64,000 nt of DNA from the IMG/VR virus record IMGVR_UViG_2740892439_000009, one strand, 5' to 3'. A program made the translations under genes and the position numbers. Within the stretch, counting starts at the first letter, position 1. Each line of letters starts with the position of its first letter. Below are positions 38,640-53,641 of the stretch, piece by piece. The notes beneath the pieces were generated by a model. It was not told where the DNA came from and ran no database searches. It saw only the letters and a program-made list of their open reading frames with translations. This stretch comes from a virus. Lineage: Duplodnaviria; Heunggongvirae; Uroviricota; Caudoviricetes.

Positions 38640-38841
38640 TAAACGGGAGAAGGAAACGCTTCATGAAATCAGTAAGTGGCCGGAGTTCCCTGAGTACTGG
38701 AAGCCTAAAACGCGAGCTAAGTTAGAGCGTTTAGGGTTGGTTGCAAACGTTTCTGAAACGAAGTGTTCGGCCAACTACCAGTTAACTGATAAAGGGAAAG
38801 TATTGCTACAGCAATTAGTAGAATCAGGAGTGTTAAAATGA
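38626..38841 (+). CDS. Small hypothetical protein (71 aa)
   Basis: ORF in ATGA-coupled series. Confidence 0.4.
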   Translation: MIVLSKREKETLHEISKWPEFPEYWKPKTRAKLERLGLVANVSETKCSANYQLTDKGKVLLQQLVESGVLK

Positions 38842-38990
38842 TTCCATACATCTCATTAGCTTTTATGAGTGGCTTCCTTATCGGCTTCGGCATCTGTCGT
38901 GATTTAATTAAGCAGGAACTTAAAACCAAAACACTGTGCATCGGAAAGCGTGTGTATCGGGTAGTTCATGAAACAAAGGTTAAAAAATGA
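38838..38990 (+). CDS. Small membrane protein (50 aa)
   Basis: ATGA overlap; one TM; C-terminal KRVYRVVHETK resembles 38463 ORF. Confidence 0.35.
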   Translation: MIPYISLAFMSGFLIGFGICRDLIKQELKTKTLCIGKRVYRVVHETKVKK

Positions 38991-39277
38991 GCAATTTAAC
39001 TTCTTGGGACTGGTGGTTGGCCACCTATTTCTTAGCGGCCGGAGTCGCATTCGCCTTTTACGTAGGTCAGTTAGTCGTAAAACTGTTGCTGATTAAATTT
39101 GCTAGTCATAAACGTATCGATGATGGTCTGTGGCGTCTTGGCACCCTGGTGGAAACTCGCTACGGGCAACTTAAGGAGAACGAAACCATTACTATCCAGG
39201 CGAAACGATTCACTGCCACCATCACAAGAACACCTAGTCGTAGAGTGGCCTTGATCAAAAAAGTCACAACCGAATAA
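38987..39277 (+). CDS. Small membrane protein (96 aa)
   Basis: ATGA overlap; N-terminal TM. Confidence 0.4.
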   Translation: MSNLTSWDWWLATYFLAAGVAFAFYVGQLVVKLLLIKFASHKRIDDGLWRLGTLVETRYGQLKENETITIQAKRFTATITRTPSRRVALIKKVTTE

Positions 39278-39286
39278 AAATATCAT

Positions 39287-39308
39287 GATAAGTATTTACT
39301 TACTTATC
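39287..39308. promoter_or_regulatory. Intergenic inverted repeat GATAAGTATTTACTTACTTATC
   Basis: GATAAGTA / TACTTATC arms. Confidence 0.4.
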
Positions 39309-39691
39309 TTTTATGTATAAGATGACTTTGTTTTCGTTGAGACGCGACTGTTTGAACTTAAATACAAGTGCAAACGAAGAAGTCTATCTGGCAGTAGCCT
39401 AATAAGCCAAACACCAGCGAGGTCAGTTTCCAGCCTCGTTACCGAAATGGGACACACTGAGCGAGTGTGATTGCAGAACGCAGGATAGGGCATAGACAGC
39501 CAAACCACTATGCCCTATTCGATGAAGTAACAGAATGGGCGGTTGGTATATTTTCAACTCCATATGACTCCCGGATTCTTAGCCTCTGACCGCCCATCCT
39601 GTTACGTCATTTTGTTCAATTATGTCGTTTATACTGGGTTAAAAAGCGGCGACGTAGCCCGGCTGGTATGGTTAGCCAGCACACAACGTTG

Positions 39692-39803
39692 AGGCCATTA
39701 CATTTTTATCAATTCTAAGGTTCTATTCACAGAGATACCGGCGAGCGTTGATATGTAACATGTTGGGCAAACATTCAATCGGAGTAGTGGCCTCAACGTT
39801 GTG
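39692..39803. repeat. Perfect 15-bp inverted repeat CACAACGTTGAGGCC / GGCCTCAACGTTGTG separated by about 82 nt
   Basis: Read directly; lies in a 750-bp non-coding region with other long stems. Confidence 0.5.
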
Positions 39804-40068
39804 AAGACAGGATTGTTGTGTAGGTTTAACCACTGTTGCCATTGGTGCCTGTTTTCACAACAAATGATTCCATACATCACATTGTATAAATTACAAAGTA
39901 GGTGCTGTCCTCAAAAAACATCATCTACTTAAAGATTTTGCCTTCTATTGAGCGAAGTCGAAAACGTCTGGCACTAACGAAAAGTGCAAGTAGCGGTGCG
40001 TTTCCTGGCAGAAACTAACACCGCCGCGATTGGCACTGTTGAGTAATAAATACTGGCAGTGCTGAATT

Positions 40069-40143
40069 GATGGTGTAGCTCAGCGGTAGAGCAGTTGGCT
40101 GTTAACCAACTGGTCGGTGGTTCGAATCCACCCACCATCGCCA
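40069..40143 (+). tRNA. tRNA-Asn (anticodon GTT)
   Basis: Acceptor GATGGTG/CACCATC, D-arm GCTC..GAGC, anticodon loop CTGTTAA, T-loop TTCGAAT, encoded CCA. Confidence 0.8.
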
Positions 40144-40148
40144 ATTTA

Positions 40149-40235
40149 GGGGAGTTAGTCCGTAGAGGTAGCGGTGTAGACTGTAAATCTACTGTCATTG
40201 CGACTCGGGTGGTTCGACTCCATCACTCCCCACCA
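40149..40235 (+). tRNA. tRNA-Tyr (anticodon GTA), long variable arm
   Basis: Acceptor GGGGAGT/ACTCCCC, anticodon arm GTAGA-CTGTAAA-TCTAC, T-loop TTCGACT, CCA. Confidence 0.75.
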
Positions 40236-40239
40236 AATT

Positions 40240-40315
40240 GCCGGTTTAGCTCAGTTGGTAGAGCGCTGCCTTGTAAGCAGGATGTCAGCGGTTCGAGTCC
40301 GCTAACCGGCACCAA
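40240..40315 (+). tRNA. tRNA-Thr (anticodon TGT)
   Basis: Acceptor GCCGGTT/AACCGGC, D-arm GCTCAGTTGGTAGAGC, loop CTTGTAA, T-arm AGCGG-TTCGAGT-CCGCT, CCA. Confidence 0.7.
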
Positions 40316-40538
40316 TACAACGATAAGATCATTACGGTTAATCGTCGTTCATGTGCACAATGACTGGTCGAAAGGTAGTGATCTTACCGTTGTGGTGGAT
40401 TCGCAGACTGATGCGATAGCTTTCTTGGATGTTAGGGAAATGCGGCCGCAAATCTTCCCTTTCGCGAGCGGTGATCGTCCGTAGTCCTAATTGGCTGCAC
40501 CGTATGCCGGAGATTCAGTACCGGCCACCACAACGGCC

Positions 40539-40625
40539 GGAGAGTAGGGAGCATGGTGCTCAAGCGGTCTTGAAAACCGTCCCATTGCGCAAGCGATGAT
40601 GGTTCGATTCCATTACTCTCCGCCA
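40539..40625 (+). tRNA. tRNA-Ser (anticodon TGA), long variable arm
   Basis: Acceptor GGAGAGT/ACTCTCC, anticodon loop CTTGAAA, T-loop TTCGATT, CCA. Confidence 0.75.
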
Positions 40626-40628
40626 GAC

Positions 40629-40696
40629 ACAGCGTTGAGCGGTTTGGCCTTTTAATCAACTCGATTAAGACTCCGCTAACATAAACCAGACCGCTC
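40629..40696. terminator. Long inverted repeat ACAGCGTTGAGCGGT / ACCGCTCAACGCTGT
   Basis: 15-bp arms separated by about 38 nt between the tRNA cluster and convergent minus-strand genes. Confidence 0.45.
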
Positions 40697-40779
40697 AACG
40701 CTGTGATAGACAATTACGGCAGACGTTCTTAACCATAGCTTGCTAACATCCTAGCAACACTTTTTTCAGCGCAAAATTC

Positions 40780-40803
40780 AAAGGGGCTTCGGCCCCTTTT
40801 CTT
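40780..40803. terminator. Bidirectional rho-independent terminator
   Basis: AAAGGGGC ttcg GCCCCTTTT flanked by T/A runs on both strands. Confidence 0.6.
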
Positions 40804-42014
40804 CAAAAAAGTTTTATAAATTCATAATTCTGGTCAATTAAGGATTCAATACACACCATGCAAAAATCTACATCGTCAAAATCAGGTGTGTAATATTCAT
40901 CCTCATAACATTCATTTAGACCTTCAATCAATTTTTCTTTAAAAACTCCCCACGTTTCAATATGAACCATTTCCATATAAGGCGCATGTGTATGTGCTTG
41001 CAATACATCCCAGGTGTCTATAACCTCGATCCGCGGCTTGCAATTAATTTTTTCTAAATATGCCTTCCCAGAATTGTAAATTTTCGACATTGATGCCCCA
41101 AAACCTGATGGTTGGTAATGAGTGTAAATGTCATAAATTTTTTGTCCTATTCTAGGGAGTTGAGAAGCATTGGATATTTGTGGCGAATGAAAGTATCGCT
41201 CTATGGAAGAAAACGCAGAAACATTAACTAGAGTAATCGTATATGGCGCTAAAGTTCTCTCATTCAAATTTCTACATAAAATAGCAAACCCATGGCTATT
41301 AGTCTTTTCACCGTCTGAGGACATTTTTGCCATGCTGGCTTTAATAACATTCAATTTCGAATGTAAACGAGAAGTTGAAGTCGGTTTATTATACATTTCA
41401 TCATCATACAAACATATATGAAACCCACCAAGATGACGAAATGAGAACTTGAGTGCTTCTTCCGCAATAACTAATTTATTAATATCTAAAGGAGTAAGTG
41501 ATACGTTACCTTGTAAATCATAGCAAGGTTCTAAACATAGAAAGTTTTTCTTCTGCCACACGATCATATTAAAAATAAAGTGTCTAACCAGGGGTGGCCA
41601 GTCAGGTGATATAAGTACATTGGTAATATCTCCATCAGACAAGTATGACAAGTAACTTTTTAGTTCCGCAGCATATGCCACCAACTCAGTTCCAGCTTCC
41701 CTTGTTGGTGTTGAAAAGTTTTTTAACTCAATAAGAACTAAGGATTCATTCTCTGTTGAATAAGCAACAACATCAGGTCTTAATATCTCAGATTTTGTTG
41801 CTGAGATATTCTCATCATCTGTCATTAAATGTAACAATGTTATGTTCTTTAAACAAAACTGATAACTCTCCTTAATTTTTTTCTCTTCGGGTCTTTTCGG
41901 ATTAAATTCGTTTAATTTATCAATATTGATGATTGAATTATATAATCCATCTTGATCAGATAATTTGTCAATTATCCAATTTTGCATTTCCTTTTCGCTT
42001 AAAAATATTGACAC
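40803..42014 (-). CDS. Candidate defence effector: 403-aa protein with putative PD-(D/E)xK nuclease motif
   Basis: RPDVVAY ... LVLIELK arrangement in N-terminal third; GTG start preceded by GGGAG; markedly AT-rich. Confidence 0.5.
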   Translation of the reverse strand: MSIFLSEKEMQNWIIDKLSDQDGLYNSIINIDKLNEFNPKRPEEKKIKESYQFCLKNITLLHLMTDDENISATKSEILRPDVVAYSTENESLVLIELKNFSTPTREAGTELVAYAAELKSYLSYLSDGDITNVLISPDWPPLVRHFIFNMIVWQKKNFLCLEPCYDLQGNVSLTPLDINKLVIAEEALKFSFRHLGGFHICLYDDEMYNKPTSTSRLHSKLNVIKASMAKMSSDGEKTNSHGFAILCRNLNERTLAPYTITLVNVSAFSSIERYFHSPQISNASQLPRIGQKIYDIYTHYQPSGFGASMSKIYNSGKAYLEKINCKPRIEVIDTWDVLQAHTHAPYMEMVHIETWGVFKEKLIEGLNECYEDEYYTPDFDDVDFCMVCIESLIDQNYEFIKLF

Positions 42015-42040
42015 TAATTAGGCTCCCGTTAAACCAAAAA

Positions 42041-42862
42041 TTAAAAATCTTGCTTTACTTTATCCATGGTCAGAATTTTGCTAATAATTGAAGATTCAAA
42101 TCCATCTAAACCTGAGAGAAAGTTAATTAGCTTTTGGATATGTTGTTCTTTAGGTATAAGTATATATTTTATATCATTGAACTCAAAATCAATGCCAAAC
42201 TTTGAAAATTCTGAGCTAATTTTTGCTTTGTCATCAGAAGTGATAACACGCTCCAAACTCAGACTAGGCCATAAATCACCAATAAAAGGAGCTGGCACAT
42301 AACGCCACTCTTTCTCGTCTGCATATATATAATTCTCTATTGTTTTATTATCTTTTCGCTCTAGCTTGCCTCTGTAATTTTTCATATAACGCAGTAAATT
42401 ATATAGATCAGAGTATTCTGCTTTCAATTTCTCAAACTCTATTCTGTTTTTGGTATCTAAATTTCCTCTAGCCTTCCAAAGCGGCACCAACTTATTTTTA
42501 ATAAGTCGAATTCTGGCATTGTATTTAGAAAATATTTCACTACTCTTATTCATATATAGAACTGGGTGTAGACCTTTCTTTTCCGCCCAAGACTTAGTTA
42601 GCCCAAGACCGAATTCTCCATATTTTCCGCTATGATCTCTGATTTGTGATAGTTTTATGTCACAAAACGATACCATTGGTACTGCAAACCTCCTACGTCC
42701 CCCGACTCCTCTTATTTCCTCGCGAGCAAGAAATGGTTTAAAATATTTCTCAGCCAATATGCTATAGAAAGCATCTTCGTTTTTTGTAAAATGAAACAAC
42801 GTGGTTGGATGAAGACTATAAACAGATTCAACATTCGCATCAGGATTTTCAAGGATAGTCAT
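42041..42862 (-). CDS. Candidate defence partner protein (about 273 aa from ATG; track ORF extends to 42907)
   Basis: ATG (MTILENPD) preceded by AGGTG; LFHFTK...YG.FGLGL motifs; AT-rich; co-oriented 26 bp upstream of the 403-aa gene. Confidence 0.5.
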   Translation of the reverse strand: MTILENPDANVESVYSLHPTTLFHFTKNEDAFYSILAEKYFKPFLAREEIRGVGGRRRFAVPMVSFCDIKLSQIRDHSGKYGEFGLGLTKSWAEKKGLHPVLYMNKSSEIFSKYNARIRLIKNKLVPLWKARGNLDTKNRIEFEKLKAEYSDLYNLLRYMKNYRGKLERKDNKTIENYIYADEKEWRYVPAPFIGDLWPSLSLERVITSDDKAKISSEFSKFGIDFEFNDIKYILIPKEQHIQKLINFLSGLDGFESSIISKILTMDKVKQDF

Positions 42863-42938
42863 TTTACACCTTGTGGAAAGCCAGTTTAGTTCTGTAAATA
42901 GTATCACACGACAGGCGGCTATTCTTCTATCAATAAAT

Positions 42939-43468: not shown

Positions 43469-43501
43469 AAAACGTCTAAATGATTCCATACCTACTATGT
43501 A
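43469..43501. other. lox/FRT-like candidate recombination core: 13-bp perfect inverted repeats around a 7-bp spacer
   Basis: AATGATTCCATAC ctactat GTATGGAATCATT, about 110 bp upstream of the tyrosine recombinase gene. Confidence 0.45.
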
Positions 43502-43609
43502 TGGAATCATTACTGAAAATGAGTTACTTTTACTCTTGATCCTATAAGAATCTATGCCTAATATACTGTTTACTTATACAGTGCATCGGCGTAACTCGGT
43601 GATTGTCAT

Positions 43610-49274: not shown

Positions 49275-52200
49275 ATGAAGGCACTGATGGTTCGAACTGA
49301 CTTCTCACTTGGGGAGTCGGCTTTAAAAGCAGAAAACGCGGTGAAGATTGCCAGAGAAGCTGGCTACACCGCTGTAATTTCAGCAGATAGCATGAATATT
49401 GCGAGCGTTATTCCACTACAACGTGCCGCTGGTGACGACATGGCGGTTATTTGTGGTGTGAAACTAAACATTGTTGATGATCCCACATACGAGCACCGGG
49501 TTAAACTTGCTAAAGAATCTATGAGATGTATGGAATCATTAGAGCGGGGACGTAACTACTCGTTTACCGCTCTAATTAAAAATGAGCAAGGATATCGCGA
49601 CATCTGCGAACTAATGACGGTGGCCAACACACGAGAACAGTTCTACTTTGTACCGCGTCTCTCGCTCGAACAGTTGGTTTCTACATATGCCAAAGGCAAC
49701 ATCATCCTGCTCACTTCCGACATCGGTAGCGTGTTCCAACGCAACGATTTTGCAAAAATCATAAGCTCACTGATTACAGCGGGCGGGAAAGACAACTTCT
49801 ATAGCGTGGTTTATCCGCACCCTACCCCATTCTACGACCAGATTAACGTCCGGGCGATGAAAGTCGCCAGCGCATTGAAAATAGAGCCAGTGGCGTTCTA
49901 TCCCGCTTATTACGAATCGATCGACGATGCAGACATTAAAGACATTGCGCACATGGTTACGAACAACATAAAAATCGACCAGCCGCATCGTCTGCGTATC
50001 CCCCACCAGCGAGATAACGCCATCAATGGTCGTCGCCATCTCCTTGAGGCGCTTAAAGCCTTCTCCGTTCGCATGGATGTGCCGGTAACAGCTGCAATGG
50101 CCTCAACAACGCAGGACTCCATTATCGATGCCTGCACATGGCGCTGGCATGAATTGCCACCAGCACTGCCCAAGATGGCAGACGACGAACCTGCAACGCT
50201 GATGAAACTGGCTGTTGCAGGGCTGCGTAAACGTCTTACCACAAAAGAGTTTGGATACACACCACCTGCTTCTGAGAACAGGGTTTATGTTGAGCGGCTA
50301 AAGTACGAAATGGACACGCTGACTCGCCTGGGATTCTGTGGTTACTTCCTGATGGTACGCGATCTGATGAATCACAGCCGTGAAACTGGCATTCCTGTCG
50401 GGCCTGGTCGTGGTTCCTCTGCCGGTTCTCTGGTGGCGTGGTGCATAGGCATAACCAACGTCGACCCAATCCGTCACGGTCTTCTGTTTGAGCGTTTCAT
50501 CAACCCTGAGCGTCTCGACTTGCCGGATGCGGACTTGGACTTCAGCCAGGCACGTCGCCATGAGGTGATCGAGTATCTGAATGAACGCTACGGCGAAGAT
50601 TACGTTGCAGGCATTCCGAACTTCACCTATCTGGGCGCGGCATCTGCGCTGCGTGACACTGCACGTATTTACGGTGTCGATGCTGCGGATATGGCGGTAT
50701 CCAAAGAGTTCAAGAATATGGAGGACGACAGCCTGTCTCTGGAAGAGCTGCGCGAGCAACTGGCCAGCCTGGACAAATACGCCACGAAAAACCCGGAAGC
50801 GTTCAAAGCGGCGTGTAAGCTGCAAAGCCTGATGCGTGGTTTTGGTCGTCACGCTGCGGGGATGATCGTCGCTGGCGTTCCATTAGTAGAGCGCACGCCC
50901 GTCGAGCTGCGTGGCAATGCTCGATGTATTGCGTTCGATAAACGTTACTGCGAGGCGATGGGGCTGATTAAGTTGGACGTTCTCGGTCTGGCAACACTCG
51001 ATCTTCTGGATAGCGCGAAACGCTACATCAAAGAGAGTACCGGTGAATACATCAATCTCGACGCTATCCCACTGGACGATCGCAAGGTTCTGGATGGGTT
51101 CGCTGCAGGGTACACGCAGGGCGTATTCCAGCTGGAGTCCGGCCCCATGCGTAAGCTGCTTAAAGATCTGGGCGGTGGCATCGAGCCAATGAGTTTCAAA
51201 ACCGTTGTCGCAACTACCGCCCTCTTCCGACCGGGACCGATTCAATCCGGCATGTTGGATGACTATGTTTCCGTTGCGAAAGGATTTATGACGCCTACAT
51301 CACTACATCCTGTCTTGGATGAACTGACCTCTGAAACAAATGGAGTGATTCTCTATCAGGAACAAACGATGAACGCAACAAGGCTTCTTGCTGGTTTCAC
51401 AATGGCCGAGGCGGATGGTGTGCGTTCAGCAATCGGTAAGAAGAACATGGAAAAGATGAGGAGCATGGGTGAGAAATTTGTCATTCAGGCTCAAGCTGGG
51501 TGGATCGACGTAGAGCTTGAAAATGGCGCAATACAACGGATTCATCGCGCAGAACATTTTAAATGCGAGGACGGTACTCTGAGGACAGTTGAAGAGGCGT
51601 TGGAGCATGGAGTGAAGCTGCCAATGCCAGTTGTGCGCGTTACAACGTCACATCCAGGTCTGTCTGAGACGAAGGCAAAAGAGATATGGACTGCATTTGA
51701 GAAAAACGGAGCCTATCAGTTCAATAAATCACACTCCGTTGCTTATTCTTTAATCAGTTATCAGTCTATGTGGCTAAAGACGCACTACCCTGCTGAGTTC
51801 TTCGCAGCTGCGCTCACCATTCTGGGCGAGGATAAGCATCAGGGGCTGGTGAAGGATGCGCTGACCTATGGCATTCGCGTATTGCCACCAGACGTTAATG
51901 TGTCATCTAACCGAATTGAGATCCGCACACTCGAAGACGGCAGTCAGGCACTGTATGCGCCATTCTCTGCTGTGAAAGGCTGTTCTGAAAATGGTTGTCA
52001 GGCAATTATGCGTGCGCGTGAGAAAGTTGGTGGCAAATTCGAGTCAGTGGCACAATTCGATGAAGCGGTCGAGAAGCGTGCATGTAACAGTCGTGTACGC
52101 GAGTCGCTTCATAAAGTAGGGGCTTTTGCGTCAATTGAGCCAGGCAGTCTGCCAGCAACTGATCCTGAACGACTGCGCGACCAGGCTGAGCTGATGGGCA

Positions 52201-52826: not shown

Positions 52827-53096
52827 GAATTATGGCGCTTGTTGAGGAAGTCACTCCTCTTACGCACTTTGTTTTGCCATGCCGGCAGTTAGCTTCTGCC
52901 TTTGACTATTCATGCGGCAACCCCGCATTTCGCCACAATGGGCAATTCACTTTTATGGAATAAACTGGCCGTTGTGTCGATTTAATTAGCATGGCCTTAC
53001 CATGCTAATTTATTCAACTTGTACAATCCTACAAATCTATCCACTCAGGCTTACACCGTCTTCGTTATTGTAGAAATGAGGATCATCAGCGTTGAA

Positions 53097-53312
53097 TCAG
53101 CTTAGAGCAACGACATTTGCTGCTGCTGGGCCTTTAGCCCCATTCTCGATAGAGAATTCGACCTGCTGGCCTTCTTCCAAAGTGCGGAAATTATTACTCT
53201 GAATTGCCGAAAAATGTACAAAAACATCTTTACTGCCATCAGCAGGAGAAATAAAGCCAAAGCCTTTATCAGAGTTAAACCATTTTACTAAACCAGTCAT
53301 TTTATTAGACAT
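53097..53312 (-). CDS. Cold-shock protein (CspA family)
   Basis: [23 protein letters not shown]...VFVHFSAI closely parallels E. coli CspA. Confidence 0.85.
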
Positions 53313-53641
53313 AGATATTACCTTCTTAATTTTGTGAGCCACATAGTGCGGCGAGAATTTGATCTGTATAGATTGGGACTTACTTAGGCACTTAAGGAGG
53401 AGACTCACGAAGAAGGGAAATCAGAAGATAACACTGAACTGAGACTGCTTTACTAAAACTGCTTACATAAGGTCTGTCTTGCAAACCAACGATGCTATTA
53501 ACGCATACCCCTTCTTTTCATGCAACCTTTATTTTTCAAAGATAACTAATTTTTGTCACCATTGGTTTAGTAAACGTTAACGAACCAGACGATGCCAGAC
53601 ACCTTTACAGAGAACAGATGCCCGCCAATTGGCGGGCATCA

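What the first reader, a model, noticed from the sequence alone, without database searches (positions are those of the whole stretch)
39310..40067. 750-bp non-coding region upstream of the tRNA cluster with multiple long stems
No plausible ORF. It contains a perfect 15-bp inverted repeat (39692-39706 / 39789-39803) separated by about 82 nt, an 11-bp stem (GATAGGGCATAG ... CTATGCCCTATTC, about 39482-39519) and a further long pair (GGGCGGT ... ACCGCCC, about 39536-39597). This may encode small RNAs, a processing leader for the tRNA operon, or a cis-acting site such as a secondary origin.
Basis: seen in the sequence. Interest (0 to 1): 0.5.

Follow-up and report, generated by a model that had tools for sequence, protein, structure and literature searches.

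The report
Phage tmRNA-like tag RNA before tRNAs
The "empty" 750 bases upstream of this phage-plasmid's tRNA genes encode a conserved, heavily folded RNA whose first part copies the tag-coding core of bacterial tmRNA but lacks its tRNA-like half. The same unannotated module occurs in hundreds of unrelated enterobacterial phages, so phages may tamper with the host's ribosome-rescue tagging system.

Summary
They are far beyond chance: RNA folding z = -7.8, and 99.7% of predicted pairs are kept across 17 relatives of 68-100% identity, with compensatory changes. The window is an SSU5-like E. coli phage-plasmid. Positions 39330-40068 are a + strand structured RNA that runs into four tRNA genes. [quoted passage not shown] It has a start-less 10-codon frame, GCA AAC ... 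= ANEEVYLAVA, followed by a double stop in a hairpin. It has the frame-setting A at -4, a covarying hairpin and, in relatives, a pseudoknot. ARAGORN, Rfam tmRNA models and an nhmmer profile each pick out this tag, all below threshold. BLAST finds the module in 775 of 50,697 phage records from many families, never annotated as RNA. Tags vary (ANDNVFLAVA, ANDDVVLMAA, ANDNEFKVAA and others), with many synonymous changes only in this frame. No tRNA-like domain or SmpB was found on the whole plasmid, so it is not a tmRNA. The rest is a chain of hairpins with constant stems and variable inserts. How the tag would be decoded is unknown.

The parts
39287..39308 (+). 8-bp inverted repeat GATAAGTA / TACTTATC followed by TTTTAT. 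It lies at the end of the upstream ORF and overlaps the putative -35. It may be a terminator or an operator.
   Evidence: Sequence. It is kept in all 17 SSU5-type relatives, helix 1. A compensatory variant GATAGGTA / TACCTA occurs in L100.
39295..39323 (+). Putative promoter TTTACT-N17-TAAGAT (TATGAT in Klebsiella-type relatives). It would start the RNA at about 39330.
   Evidence: Alignment. Analogous TTGACA-N17-TATAGT or TAGATT promoters sit just upstream of the module in Felix-type and Klebsiella siphovirus-type loci. The consensus scan did not call it, as it matches 8 of 12 positions. This is inference.
39330..39336 (+). Near-invariant 5' motif GUUUUCG, the predicted 5' end of the RNA.
   Evidence: Present in 24 of the 26 sequences aligned. 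Two place it a few nt further upstream. In Ackermannviridae it pairs with an upstream GAACGAAAA.
39370..39405 (+). Start-less tag reading frame GCA AAC GAA GAA GUC UAU CUG GCA GUA GCC UAA UAA = ANEEVYLAVA**. A lies at -4 (39366).
   Evidence: ARAGORN calls the same frame in L005. Rfam gives tmRNA-family hits. nhmmer aligns it to the E. coli ssrA resume codon.
39388..39417 (+). Hairpin that places the stop codons in its loop, formed by the last tag codons and the downstream GCC...CCAG. This is analogous to tmRNA helix 5.
   Evidence: RNAalifold. The equivalent helix in non-SSU5 relatives is 95.9% paired (helix 4).
39417..39439 (+). Hairpin GCGAGGU / GCCUCGU.
   Evidence: Invariant within SSU5-type (helix 5). 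Three pairs show compensatory changes across other clades, 99.5% paired (helix 6).
39453..39482 (+). Stem CACACU / AGUGUG (39453-39458 / 39464-39469). In relatives its loop pairs downstream to form an H-type pseudoknot. In the window the second stem is at most 3 bp (GCG 39461-39463 / CGC 39479-39481).
   Evidence: Stem 1 is 100% paired with 2 compensatory pairs (helix 7). Stem 2 grows from 4 to 6 to 7 bp through correlated insertions on both sides. The window's own stem 2 is inconclusive.
39483..39520 (+).
   Evidence: helix 7, 2 compensatory pairs. It occupies the same position and has similar sequence to AGGUAAGAGCAU...GUGCUCUUUCC in other phages.
39521..39611 (+).
   Evidence: helix 8: 25 pairs, 3 with double changes, 99.5% paired.
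39620..39680 (+). Two conserved hairpins: UUAUGUCGUU / GGCGACGUAG and GCUGGU / GCCAGC. The second has a D-loop-like loop, UAUGGUUAG.
   Evidence: helices 9 and 10. Swapped arms occur in L100.
39682..39803 (+).
   Evidence: helix 11, 2 compensatory pairs. It belongs to the same family as 40315-40398 and as the CACAAC...GUUGUG modules elsewhere.
39798..39861 (+). Hairpin GUUGUGAAGACAGG / CCUGUUUUCACAAC. Its 5' GUUGUG is also the 3' base of module 2, so the two pairings are mutually exclusive.
   Evidence: helix 12, 4 pairs with double changes.
39863..39878 (.). 16-nt motif AATGATTCCATACATC, a conserved island. It is probably a DNA site for a recombinase or repressor.
   Evidence: Five copies in the window against 0.04 expected. 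Conserved at this position in all SSU5-type relatives checked.
39971..40062 (+). 3' hairpins GCAC / GUGC, GCGGUG / CACCGC and GCACUG / CAGUGC, just before tRNA-Asn. The last one is specific to the window's clade.
40069..40625 (+). tRNA-Asn, tRNA-Tyr, tRNA-Thr and tRNA-Ser, on the same strand as the RNA.
40315..40536 (+). Constant-stem module 3 (40315-40398) and a tRNA-like domain (closing helix 40387-40398 / 40525-40536, with D-arm-like and T-arm-like hairpins), between tRNA-Thr and tRNA-Ser.
   Evidence: Shared with P7 and D6 and with HK620 and Carvaje. Relatives in L133 reach the Rfam STnc100 threshold. The window copy does not.
40628..40800 (+). Constant-stem module 4 (40628-40705) and a GC hairpin plus T-run (40783-40800) that probably ends the transcription unit.
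   Evidence: The terminator was read from the sequence and was not called by the scan.

Best explanation
Positions about 39330-40068 encode a + strand, highly structured non-coding RNA. It is transcribed from a weak promoter at 39295-39323 and runs into the four tRNA genes. RNase P cutting at the tRNAs, and probably RNase III or E cutting at the long stems, would release its parts (inferred).

The 5' ~155 nt (39330-39482) are a tmRNA-derived 'mRNA-like domain' without the tRNA-like domain. This module has a start-less 10-codon tag frame ending in a double stop held in a hairpin loop. It has the frame-setting A at -4, a covarying hairpin and, in relatives, a pseudoknot. The way the tag evolves indicates that ribosomes read it. 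The most likely use is therefore as an alternative template for trans-translation, so that proteins from stalled ribosomes in carrier or infected cells receive a phage-specified C-terminal tag (...LAVA, LMAA or KVAA) instead of the host's ...ALAA.

No acceptor domain is encoded on this element. Entry into the ribosome would have to depend on host tmRNA-SmpB or on an unrecognised partner. This step is not shown.

The remaining ~590 nt are a chain of hairpin modules with constant stems and variable inserts. They belong to a shuffled repertoire found in phage tRNA and late-leader regions. I read them as processing or scaffold elements and possibly small-RNA precursors.
For: Structure and strand:
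- Folding z = -7.76 on the + strand and -5.52 on the - strand.
- 108 pairs are 99.7% kept across 17 relatives of 68-100% identity. Eleven show double changes and 0 of 500 shuffles match. Many G.U pairs exist only on the + strand.

Tag frame:
- Ten codons plus stop in every member examined. Variants include ANEEVYLAVA, ANEEMYLAVA, ANDNVFLAVA, ANDNQYLAVA, ANEDTYLAVA, ANDNTFLAVA, ANDDVVLMAA, ANDAQFLAVA, ANDNAYLMVA and ANDNEFKVAA.
- Synonymous/nonsynonymous codon differences are 311/593 in this frame, against 18/819 and 62/677 in the other two.
- The stop is kept as TAA, TGA or TAG.
- 85 of 126 loci have no in-frame start codon upstream.
- A lies at -4 in all real members. A86 is the essential frame-setting base of E. 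coli tmRNA, and U85C is tolerated (PMC2481249).

Independent tools pick out the same feature:
- ARAGORN reports a 'resume consensus' and the tag ANDNVFLAVA**.
- Rfam tmRNA families give the only non-tRNA weak hits at this spot. Window: E = 0.067 to 0.27. Relatives: up to 33.5 bits, E = 4e-4 to 9e-4.
- An nhmmer profile hits E. coli ssrA only at the resume codon, E = 0.044.

Module structure: the hairpin and pseudoknot stem 1 have compensatory pairs, and stem 2 has correlated insertions.

Spread and context:
- 775 of 50,697 phage records match, from Ackermannviridae, Ounavirinae, Schitoviridae, siphoviruses, P22-like HK620 and SSU5-like phage-plasmids. None of the 105 rows listed is annotated as RNA.
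- 99 of 126 loci have a same-strand tRNA within 1.5 kb.
Against: - No tRNA-like domain was found. ARAGORN and Rfam find none in the window. On the complete 111-kb plasmid, ARAGORN finds no tmRNA and only the four tRNAs, and a scan for T-arm plus CCA ends finds nothing else convincing. No SmpB gene is present in the window. Without an acceptor domain there is no known way for a ribosome to enter a start-less frame.
- All tmRNA-model scores are below the curated thresholds.
- Similarity to E. coli ssrA beyond about 27 nt is undetectable.
- The candidate partner, the tRNA-like domain, co-occurs with the tag in only 26 of 101 loci with enough flank.
- Most loci were collected with patterns that fix parts of the tag. 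The codon-position argument therefore rests mainly on the free positions and on six BLAST-retrieved divergent members.
- In the window's own clade the second pseudoknot stem is weak, and an in-frame ATG gives a 26-aa ORF.
- No expression data were available.
Confidence: 0.5

Rival explanations
1. Plain leader or spacer of the tRNA operon. The stems serve only as RNase III, E or P processing and stabilising signals for the tRNAs. The tag-like stretch is a vestige with no function of its own.
For: The region is contiguous with and co-oriented to the tRNAs, with no terminator-like site reported between them. The long, near-perfect stems with a conserved bulge and mismatch are the kind of substrate RNase III cuts (established knowledge). 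99 of 126 loci lie next to tRNAs.
Against: The tag module is the most conserved part and occurs without any tRNA in HK620-type loci. In several clades it has its own promoter. The frame-specific synonymous changes and the conserved stop are not expected of a spacer.
Confidence: 0.17
2. A regulatory or decoy RNA that is never translated. It mimics the tmRNA template region to soak up a tmRNA-binding factor (SmpB, S1, RNase R). Alternatively it pairs through its invariant 5' GUUUUCG(U) with the host tmRNA tag codons ACGAAAAC and blocks host tagging.
For: It has no acceptor domain. The 5' motif UAGUUUUCGU is complementary to E. coli tmRNA nt 97-106 in several clades. In Ackermannviridae the motif is paired with an upstream GAACGAAAA, as if masked. 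A TLD-only phage RNA (DS6A) has been proposed to inhibit tmRNA by titrating SmpB (PMC4131195).
Against: The complementarity is not significant. A 10-mer occurs in about 4% of shuffles. In the window it is only an 8-mer, which occurs in 46%. A decoy would not need synonymous-biased change, a fixed 10-codon length or a conserved stop.
Confidence: 0.15
3. One large structured RNA of the GOLLD/ROOL kind. These are big phage-borne RNAs next to tRNAs that work as a single folded particle, and the tag resemblance would be incidental.
For: It is about 740 nt, phage-borne, adjacent to tRNAs and full of covarying helices. GOLLD and ROOL share this context (my own knowledge of the literature).
Against: No Rfam hit to those families. 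Only the first ~190 nt are shared across phage families. The rest is built from interchangeable cassettes whose inserts differ even between close relatives. That does not fit one fixed tertiary fold.
Confidence: 0.06
4. A cis-acting DNA element: a recombination or cassette-insertion site, a repressor operator cluster, or a secondary origin.
For: The 16-nt motif AATGATTCCATACATC lies inside the region. It recurs 5 times in the window, including a palindromic pair in front of the integrase gene. The constant-stem/variable-insert modules look like shuffled cassettes.
Against: G.U pairs occur only on the + strand, which folds 23.5 kcal/mol better. No iterons, AT-rich unwinding stretch or DnaA-type boxes were noted on reading the sequence; this was not formally scanned. 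The plasmid's RepB initiator gene lies elsewhere. The motif covers 16 of 740 nt.
Confidence: 0.05
5. Decaying remnants of captured tmRNA and tRNA genes, or a small protein gene (the 26-aa ORF 39322-39402).
For: Some inserts contain T-arm-like fragments. The window's clade has an in-frame ATG at 39322.
Against: Conservation with compensatory changes across phage families argues against decay. The ATG is absent outside one closely related clade. Other clades have an in-frame stop 5-20 codons upstream and no start.
Confidence: 0.04

Closest known systems
tmRNA (SsrA; Rfam RF00023) and two-piece or permuted tmRNAs (RF01849, RF01850, RF04321)
   Same: A start-less tag frame beginning GCA AAC GA., 10 codons long. 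The peptide starts AN(D/E) and ends in hydrophobic-Ala (E. coli: ANDENYALAA). There is a double stop in a hairpin loop, A at -4, and a hairpin and pseudoknot downstream. The Rfam permuted-tmRNA consensus aUAAaUGCaAACGAuAA is almost identical to the phage resume region.
   Different: No acceptor stem, T-arm or CCA, in any arrangement, in the window or on the whole plasmid. The leader is about 40-50 nt and starts at GUUUUCG, where E. coli has an ~90-nt TLD half plus P2 plus PK1. Only one pseudoknot is present. All model scores are far below gathering thresholds. The tags end in LAVA, LMAA or KVAA rather than ALAA.
Known phage tmRNA genes: cluster C mycobacteriophages such as Bxz1, Bacillus phage G, and the TLD-only gene of mycobacteriophage DS6A (PMC4131195)
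   Same: They are phage-borne pieces of the trans-translation RNA. DS6A shows that a phage can carry only half of a tmRNA.
   Different: Those are complete tmRNAs, or the tRNA-like half only. This is the opposite half, the template only. That survey of 543 bacterial viruses from RefSeq identified ssrA only in mycobacteriophages.
STnc100 / PasD prophage sRNAs (RF02076; bioRxiv 10.64898/2026.05.13.724894)
   Same: They sit in the same kind of place, downstream of Q in lambdoid late leaders. An STnc100 match above threshold lies about 1 kb downstream of the tag module in Klebsiella phage KP6F1. The tRNA-like domain at 40387-40536 has a similar outline: a UGGUGAAU...CACCA closing helix with terminal hairpins.
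   Different: The window copy gives no STnc100 hit. This domain lies outside the finding. The tag module itself has no likeness to these sRNAs.
Stable RNAs of unknown function in phage tRNA clusters (T4 species 1 and 2 RNAs), and the tRNA-adjacent large RNAs GOLLD and ROOL (my own knowledge, not tested)
   Same: They are non-tRNA structured RNAs embedded in or next to phage tRNA genes and released from a common precursor.
   Different: No sequence or model similarity was found for GOLLD or ROOL. T4 species 1 and 2 were not compared. None of these is known to carry a tag reading frame.

Membership tests
tmRNA (one-piece or two-piece) | tRNA-like domain: acceptor stem with G3.U70, T-arm and 3' CCA | tested here: not met
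   ARAGORN finds no tmRNA in the window or on the whole plasmid. The Rfam scan at E<=5 finds no TLD in the window. Only the four tRNAs have a convincing T-arm plus 7 nt plus N plus CCA on the 111-kb element. The tRNA-like domain at 40387-40536 has no G3.U70 and no CCA.
tmRNA (one-piece or two-piece) | Start-less tag reading frame from a resume codon (usually GCA), about 10 codons, hydrophobic C-terminus, in-frame stop | tested here: met
   39370-39405. More than 15 tag variants, all 10 codons plus stop. Synonymous bias in this frame only. No upstream start in 85 of 126 loci.
tmRNA (one-piece or two-piece) | Conserved A four bases upstream of the resume codon (E. coli A86) | tested here: met
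   The upstream 9-mers AAGATAAAT, AAAATAAAT, AAGATAACT and AATACAAGT all have A at -4. The role of A86 is taken from PMC2481249.
tmRNA (one-piece or two-piece) | Stop codon presented in helix 5; pseudoknots flanking the template (PK1 upstream, PK2-4 downstream) | tested here: inconclusive
   The stop-codon hairpin is 95.9% paired and one downstream pseudoknot is supported in non-SSU5 clades. No PK1 equivalent was established. In the window the second pseudoknot stem is at most 3 bp.
tmRNA (one-piece or two-piece) | Score at or above the Rfam gathering threshold | tested here: not met
   Window: beta_tmRNA 14.4-17.3 bits against 84. Best relative: 33.5 bits against 47.
tRNA-operon leader or spacer RNA | Same strand as and contiguous with the tRNA genes, with no terminator between | tested here: met
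   Co-transcription itself was not tested.
GOLLD / ROOL / YrlA (Y RNA-like) large or tRNA-like phage RNAs | Match to the family covariance model | tested here: not met
   No hits at E<=5-10.
STnc100 / PasD prophage sRNA | Match to RF02076 | tested here: not met
   No hit in window 40312-40545 or 39200-40850. A related locus, L133, scores 49.7 bits against 47.

The most novel reading that the evidence does not exclude
Many enterobacterial phages and phage-plasmids carry a stand-alone tmRNA template that uses the host's own tmRNA-SmpB entry machinery, or an unknown route, to re-programme trans-translation. Products of stalled ribosomes would then get a phage-chosen tag with different proteolytic fate. 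This would be a split or 'template-only' form of trans-translation not known in any organism.
Probability: 0.3. Interest if true: 0.9.

Novelty: new variant of a known kind. Interest (0 to 1): 0.78.

Why it matters
Trans-translation is the universal bacterial system for rescuing stalled ribosomes, and some phages are known to depend on it. If a template-only tmRNA module present in about 1.5% of sequenced phage genomes is really decoded, two things follow. Tagging would be possible without a covalently attached tRNA-like domain. And phages would be rewriting the degradation tag of the host's quality-control system.

Even if it is not decoded, this is a widespread, unannotated phage RNA gene with a clear link to tmRNA. 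It has a ready-made set of natural variants for experiments. It also shows that the 'gaps' in phage tRNA islands are built from exchangeable structured-RNA cassettes.

Tried and rejected
1. Search for a tRNA-like domain. I used ARAGORN, Rfam at permissive thresholds over the whole window, and a scan for T-arm plus CCA ends over the complete plasmid. Nothing was found beyond the four tRNAs.
2. Permuted tmRNA layout (T-arm, acceptor 3' strand, NCCA, short loop, acceptor 5' strand). It occurs only in Mooglevirus loci, about 550-630 nt upstream of the tag with three tRNAs in between in L005. It is more simply two decayed tandem tRNA copies.
3. Two-piece model with the GUUGUGGUG...CACCACAAC tRNA-like domain as acceptor piece. 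I rejected it as a general model. Its D-arm motif is present in 0 of 24 Felix-type, 12 of 42 SSU5-type and 14 of 35 other loci with enough flank.
4. Antisense pairing of the 5' motif with host tmRNA. The complementarity is real but not significant. RNAduplex on full-length RNAs gave meaningless whole-length duplexes, and a first attempt timed out.
5. Long-range helices proposed by RNAalifold or MFE: 5' leader with 39987-39991, GCCAAAC 39406-39412 with GUCUGGC 39966-39972, and GUUUUCG with CGAAAAC 39959-39965. They show only one-sided changes or are clade-specific, so I did not adopt them.
6. Alternative +1 frame ORF (MQTKKSIWQ). Its start is CTG in 15 loci, and its synonymous/nonsynonymous ratio is 18/819.
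7. Phage-encoded SmpB. tblastn found none in the window.
8. Integron attC-like reading of the CACAAC...GUUGUG stems. By inspection the core sites do not fit RYYYAAC / GTTRRRY.
9. Literature. I found no paper with any of five phage tag sequences searched, and none describing a tmRNA-like gene in enterobacterial phages.
10. Representative bacterial genomes. Only 3 species (Buttiauxella, Kluyvera, Pseudocitrobacter) carry the module, so it belongs to mobile elements, not to chromosomes.
Full report
**What the window is.** The 1.5 kb around the finding is 99.9% identical to 111-kb E. coli plasmids. It is about 80-82% identical, over the stretch that aligns (39288-39878), to Salmonella phage SSU5. 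The window is therefore an SSU5-like phage-plasmid. 208 of 5,426 complete E. coli genomes carry at least 80% of this stretch, and 808 of 818 matching places are on plasmids. The finding lies in the gap between a 96-aa ORF (38987-39277, downstream of an ATP-dependent DNA ligase) and tRNA-Asn (40069). tRNA-Tyr and tRNA-Thr follow, then a 225-nt gap, then tRNA-Ser, all on the + strand. SSU5 and Cyrano have a gap of the same size before tRNA-Asn, with nothing annotated in it.

**The observation.** All three stems exist.
- The 15-bp perfect repeat is 39682-39696 / 39789-39803.
- The 11-bp stem is 39485-39495 / 39508-39518.
- GGGCGGT / ACCGCCC is the core of a 22-nt stem, 39522-39543 / 39589-39610.

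The + strand folds at -254.2 kcal/mol (z = -7.76 against shuffles). The - strand reaches only -230.7 (z = -5.52).

I collected 17 homologous regions of 68-100% identity from E. coli-, Salmonella- and Klebsiella-type relatives. On these, 108 local pairs in 13 helices are paired in 99.7% of 1,816 cells. Sliding the partners gives 34-50%. Eleven pairs show changes on both sides, and 0 of 500 shuffles reach that. Many invariant G.U pairs would be A.C mismatches on the other strand. The region is therefore a conserved + strand RNA structure, not a set of chance repeats.

**The lead that changed the picture.** A sensitive BLAST of the gap against phage genomes matched more than SSU5 relatives. About 100 nt (window 39318-39472) also matched, at about 76% identity, in unrelated phages:
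- Felix O1-like and Moogle-like myoviruses, inside their tRNA clusters.
- Klebsiella siphoviruses, upstream of a tRNA.
- The P22-like phage HK620, between the late promoter pR'/qut and the late terminator, with no tRNA nearby.

The shared core reads GCA AAC GAA GAA GUC UAU CUG GCA GUA GCC UAA UAA (39370-39405), which is ANEEVYLAVA followed by two stops. The E. coli tmRNA tag is GCA AAC GAC GAA AAC UAC GCU UUA GCA GCU UAA UAA, ANDENYALAA (sequence fetched).

**Is it really tmRNA-like?** Three tools pick out the same feature, each below its formal threshold.
- ARAGORN reports a 'resume consensus' and 'tag peptide ANDNVFLAVA**' in phage Mijalis. It then completes a spurious permuted tmRNA from unrelated tRNA-like pieces nearby.
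- Rfam tmRNA families give the only non-tRNA weak hit at this position. In the window, beta_tmRNA scores E = 0.067 in the 1.65-kb scan and E = 0.27 in the whole-window scan. Relatives reach 33.5 bits, with E = 4e-4 to 9e-4. The permuted-tmRNA consensus aUAAaUGCaAACGAuAA is nearly identical to the phage sequence.
- An nhmmer profile of the phage module, searched against the E. coli smpB-ssrA locus, gives one hit. It aligns resume codon to resume codon, E = 0.044.

The base four positions upstream of the resume codon is A in all real members. In E. coli this is A86, the one upstream base whose mutation abolishes tmRNA function. U85C, the change seen in the window's clade, is tolerated (PMC2481249).

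**Is the tag read by ribosomes?**
A looser scan of one genome per bacterial species returned only Buttiauxella, Kluyvera and Pseudocitrobacter.
- To escape the bias of those patterns, I fetched six divergent BLAST hits. Their tags are ANDNTFLAVA (Kuttervirus), ANDDVVLMAA (an N4-like Gamaleyavirus and a Taipeivirus, differing by a synonymous GUU/GUA), ANDAQFLAVA (Erwinia phiEa104), ANDNAYLMVA (Serratia phiMAM1) and ANDNEFKVAA (Erwinia phiEa2809).
- Every member has exactly ten codons and then a stop. The stop is TAA, TGA or TAG in different clades. One exception has one extra sense codon before TAA.
- Over 20 distinct tag sequences, codon differences are 311 synonymous to 593 nonsynonymous in the tag frame. 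The other two frames give 18/819 and 62/677.
- 85 of 126 loci have no ATG, GTG or TTG between the nearest upstream in-frame stop and the resume codon. The alternative +1 ORF loses its start (CTG) in 15.
- The conserved residues are N, an acidic residue, an aromatic residue and a hydrophobic-Ala C-terminus. From my knowledge of the SsrA literature, these are the ones that matter for SspB and ClpX/ClpA recognition.

I conclude, by inference, that the frame is under peptide-level selection and is entered without normal initiation.

**Structure of the module.** I aligned 34 non-SSU5 sequences.
- The hairpin after the stop has three compensatory pairs (GCAAGG/CCUUGU, GUGAGG/CCUCAU, GCAGGG/CCCUGU) and is 99.5% paired.
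- The next stem has two compensatory pairs (CGCAC/GUGUG, CGUAC/GUAUG, CGCAU/AUGUG) and is 100% paired.
- The loop of that stem pairs with sequence after GAUUAAUAA. The pairing grows from GCCC/GGGC to GCCCAC/GUGGGC to GCCCUGA/UCAGGGC through matched insertions on both sides. This is an H-type pseudoknot.
- The last tag codons pair with sequence after the stop, so the stop sits in a loop as in tmRNA helix 5 (95.9% paired).
- A closing helix CCAG/CUGG is compensated in one locus as CAAG/CUUG.
- In the window's SSU5-type clade these helices are present but almost invariant. The second pseudoknot stem is at most 3 bp.

In Felix-, SSU5- and Klebsiella-SSU5-type loci, the near-invariant GUUUUCG lies 6-7 nt after a -10 element. 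The window has TTTACT-N17-TAAGAT, and other clades have TTGACA-N17-TATAGT. It is therefore probably the 5' end of the RNA (inference).

**What is missing.** There is no tRNA-like domain.
- ARAGORN and Rfam find none in the 64-kb window.
- I fetched the complete 111-kb plasmid. ARAGORN finds only the four tRNAs. A direct scan for T-arm plus 7 nt plus N plus CCA also finds nothing else convincing.
- No SmpB homologue is in the window.
- A permuted arrangement was found only in Mooglevirus loci. It is better explained as decayed tandem tRNAs.
- A tRNA-like domain occurs next to the module in HK620 and L010-type loci. It has a GUUGUGGUG...CACCACAAC closing helix, a D-arm-like GCGCAGGCUGAUGCGC hairpin and a degenerate T-arm. 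In the window it lies at 40387-40536, between tRNA-Thr and tRNA-Ser. Its D-arm motif accompanies the tag in only 26 of 101 loci with enough flank, and in no Felix-type locus. It cannot be an obligatory partner.
- In Kuttervirus and Taipeivirus (SeF6a, KP6F1) a different tRNA-like element with an encoded U-CCA end follows the module.

The element therefore fails the defining test for tmRNA membership while keeping the template half.

**The rest of the region.** After the tag module the window has a chain of hairpins.
- 39483-39520 and 39682-39803 belong to one family, as do 40315-40398 and 40628-40705 outside the finding. In other phages this family reads CACAAC-A-GGUAAGAGCAUU ... AGUGCUCUUUCC-GUUGUG. 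It has a conserved bulged A and a U.U mismatch.
- I found 34 distinct modules with near-constant stems. Their inserts are 12-106 nt and recur at different positions in different phages. Only three contain a T-loop.
- The GUUGUG at the 3' base of such a module is also the 5' strand of the next hairpin (39798-39861 in the window). CACAAC / GUUGUG / CACAAC thus offers two exclusive pairings, and all three segments tolerate only wobble changes.
- An Rfam STnc100 match above threshold lies about 1 kb downstream of the tag module in KP6F1. STnc100 and PasD are known prophage sRNAs downstream of Q (bioRxiv 10.64898/2026.05.13.724894). The window copy of the tRNA-like domain gives no such hit.

I read these modules as processing or scaffold units and possible sRNA precursors. 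That is inference only.

**Spread.** A BLAST with the 166-nt module matched 775 of 50,697 phage records. These include Ackermannviridae, Ounavirinae, Schitoviridae, several siphovirus groups, HK620-like phages, and Erwinia, Serratia and Cronobacter phages. In the rows listed, the features under the match are 'none' or short 'hypothetical protein' calls, never an RNA. A 2014 census of 543 bacterial viruses from RefSeq identified tmRNA genes only in mycobacteriophages; it also names Bacillus phage G and the TLD-only gene of DS6A, which were outside that dataset (PMC4131195). I found no paper containing any of the five tag sequences I searched.

**Mechanism and verdict.**
- Shown: a conserved + strand structured RNA region; a tmRNA-template-like module with covarying structure; a tag frame with coding-type evolution; no acceptor domain on the element.
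- Inferred: the promoter and 5' end; co-transcription with the tRNAs and release by RNase P, III or E; decoding of the tag.
- Not shown: how a ribosome would enter the frame.

My best account (0.5) is a template-only tmRNA derivative that supplies a phage-specified tag to trans-translation through host components. The main rivals are a plain tRNA-operon leader (0.17) and an untranslated decoy or anti-tmRNA RNA (0.15). The 5' motif is complementary to host tag codons, but not significantly so. It is a new variant of a known kind. It deserves experiments because it is common, unannotated and directly testable by tag mass spectrometry.

Noticed in passing
window 38837-38852 (+), 39863-39878 (+), 43479-43511 (inverted pair), 49525-49540 (-): The 16-nt motif AATGATTCCATACATC occurs 5 times (0.04 expected). 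The pair at 43479-43511 forms a palindrome, ATGATTCCATAC-N7-GTATGGAATCAT, just upstream of the tyrosine recombinase gene and near an HTH repressor-like gene. The two direct copies about 1,026 bp apart bracket two small ORFs plus most of the RNA region. They are conserved in all SSU5-like relatives checked. The motif is probably a recombinase core site or half-site, or an asymmetric repressor operator as in P1.
   Followed up: partly
window 53072-53490 (-): Full-length match to the cspA thermoregulator 5'UTR (Rfam RF01766, 185.7 bits, E = 2.4e-49). The phage-plasmid appears to carry a cold-shock-type leader, presumably with a csp gene.
   Followed up: no
window 40315-40538: Between tRNA-Thr and tRNA-Ser lie a long-stem module and a tRNA-like domain (12-bp closing helix, D-arm-like and T-arm-like hairpins, no CCA). 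This segment is 93% identical in P1-family phages P7 and D6. It is absent from phage Cyrano, where tRNA-Thr and tRNA-Ser are 8 nt apart. It looks like a mobile RNA cassette.
   Followed up: partly
L131 (Salmonella phage SeF6a) 1371-1497; L133 (Klebsiella phage KP6F1) about 1528-1655: An unannotated tRNA-like element lies 120-280 nt downstream of the tag module. It has acceptor GCCGUUA / AAACGGC, an internal helix UCUGACU / AGUCAGA, T-arm GGGUUCGACUCCC, discriminator U and an encoded CCA. ARAGORN does not call it. It could be an acceptor piece in Ackermannviridae.
   Followed up: partly
L005 (Citrobacter phage Mijalis) 1978-2045: A permuted-looking tRNA fragment: T-arm, ACCCUUC-G-CCA, a 4-nt loop, then GAAGGGU plus a D-arm. 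It sits in a 427-nt gap of the tRNA cluster. ARAGORN uses its T-arm/acceptor part (1978-2018) as the 3' tRNA domain of its 'permuted tmRNA' call. It is probably two decayed tandem tRNA copies.
   Followed up: partly
L133 (Klebsiella phage KP6F1) 2234-2448: Rfam STnc100 sRNA match above the gathering score (49.7 against 47), in a lytic Ackermannviridae phage about 1 kb downstream of the tag module. STnc100 is usually described as a prophage sRNA.
   Followed up: partly
window 39322-39402: In the window's own E. coli clade only (40 near-identical loci), an in-frame ATG extends the tag frame to a 26-aa ORF, MTLFSLRRDCLNLNTSANEEVYLAVA. Other clades have an in-frame stop and no start.
   Followed up: yes
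window 40803-42907 (-): Directly after the tRNA island, on the opposite strand, lie a 403-aa protein of unknown function and an AbiGi-family abortive-infection antitoxin-like protein. This defence-type cargo is absent from Cyrano and SSU5 at this position.
   Followed up: no
NZ_OZ501614.1 81640-84931 (outside the window's homologous part not checked): The near-identical plasmid carries metG (methionyl-tRNA synthetase) and apbC. Another translation-related host-type gene therefore sits on the same element. There is also an unannotated 1.5-kb gap at 78714-80275.
   Followed up: no
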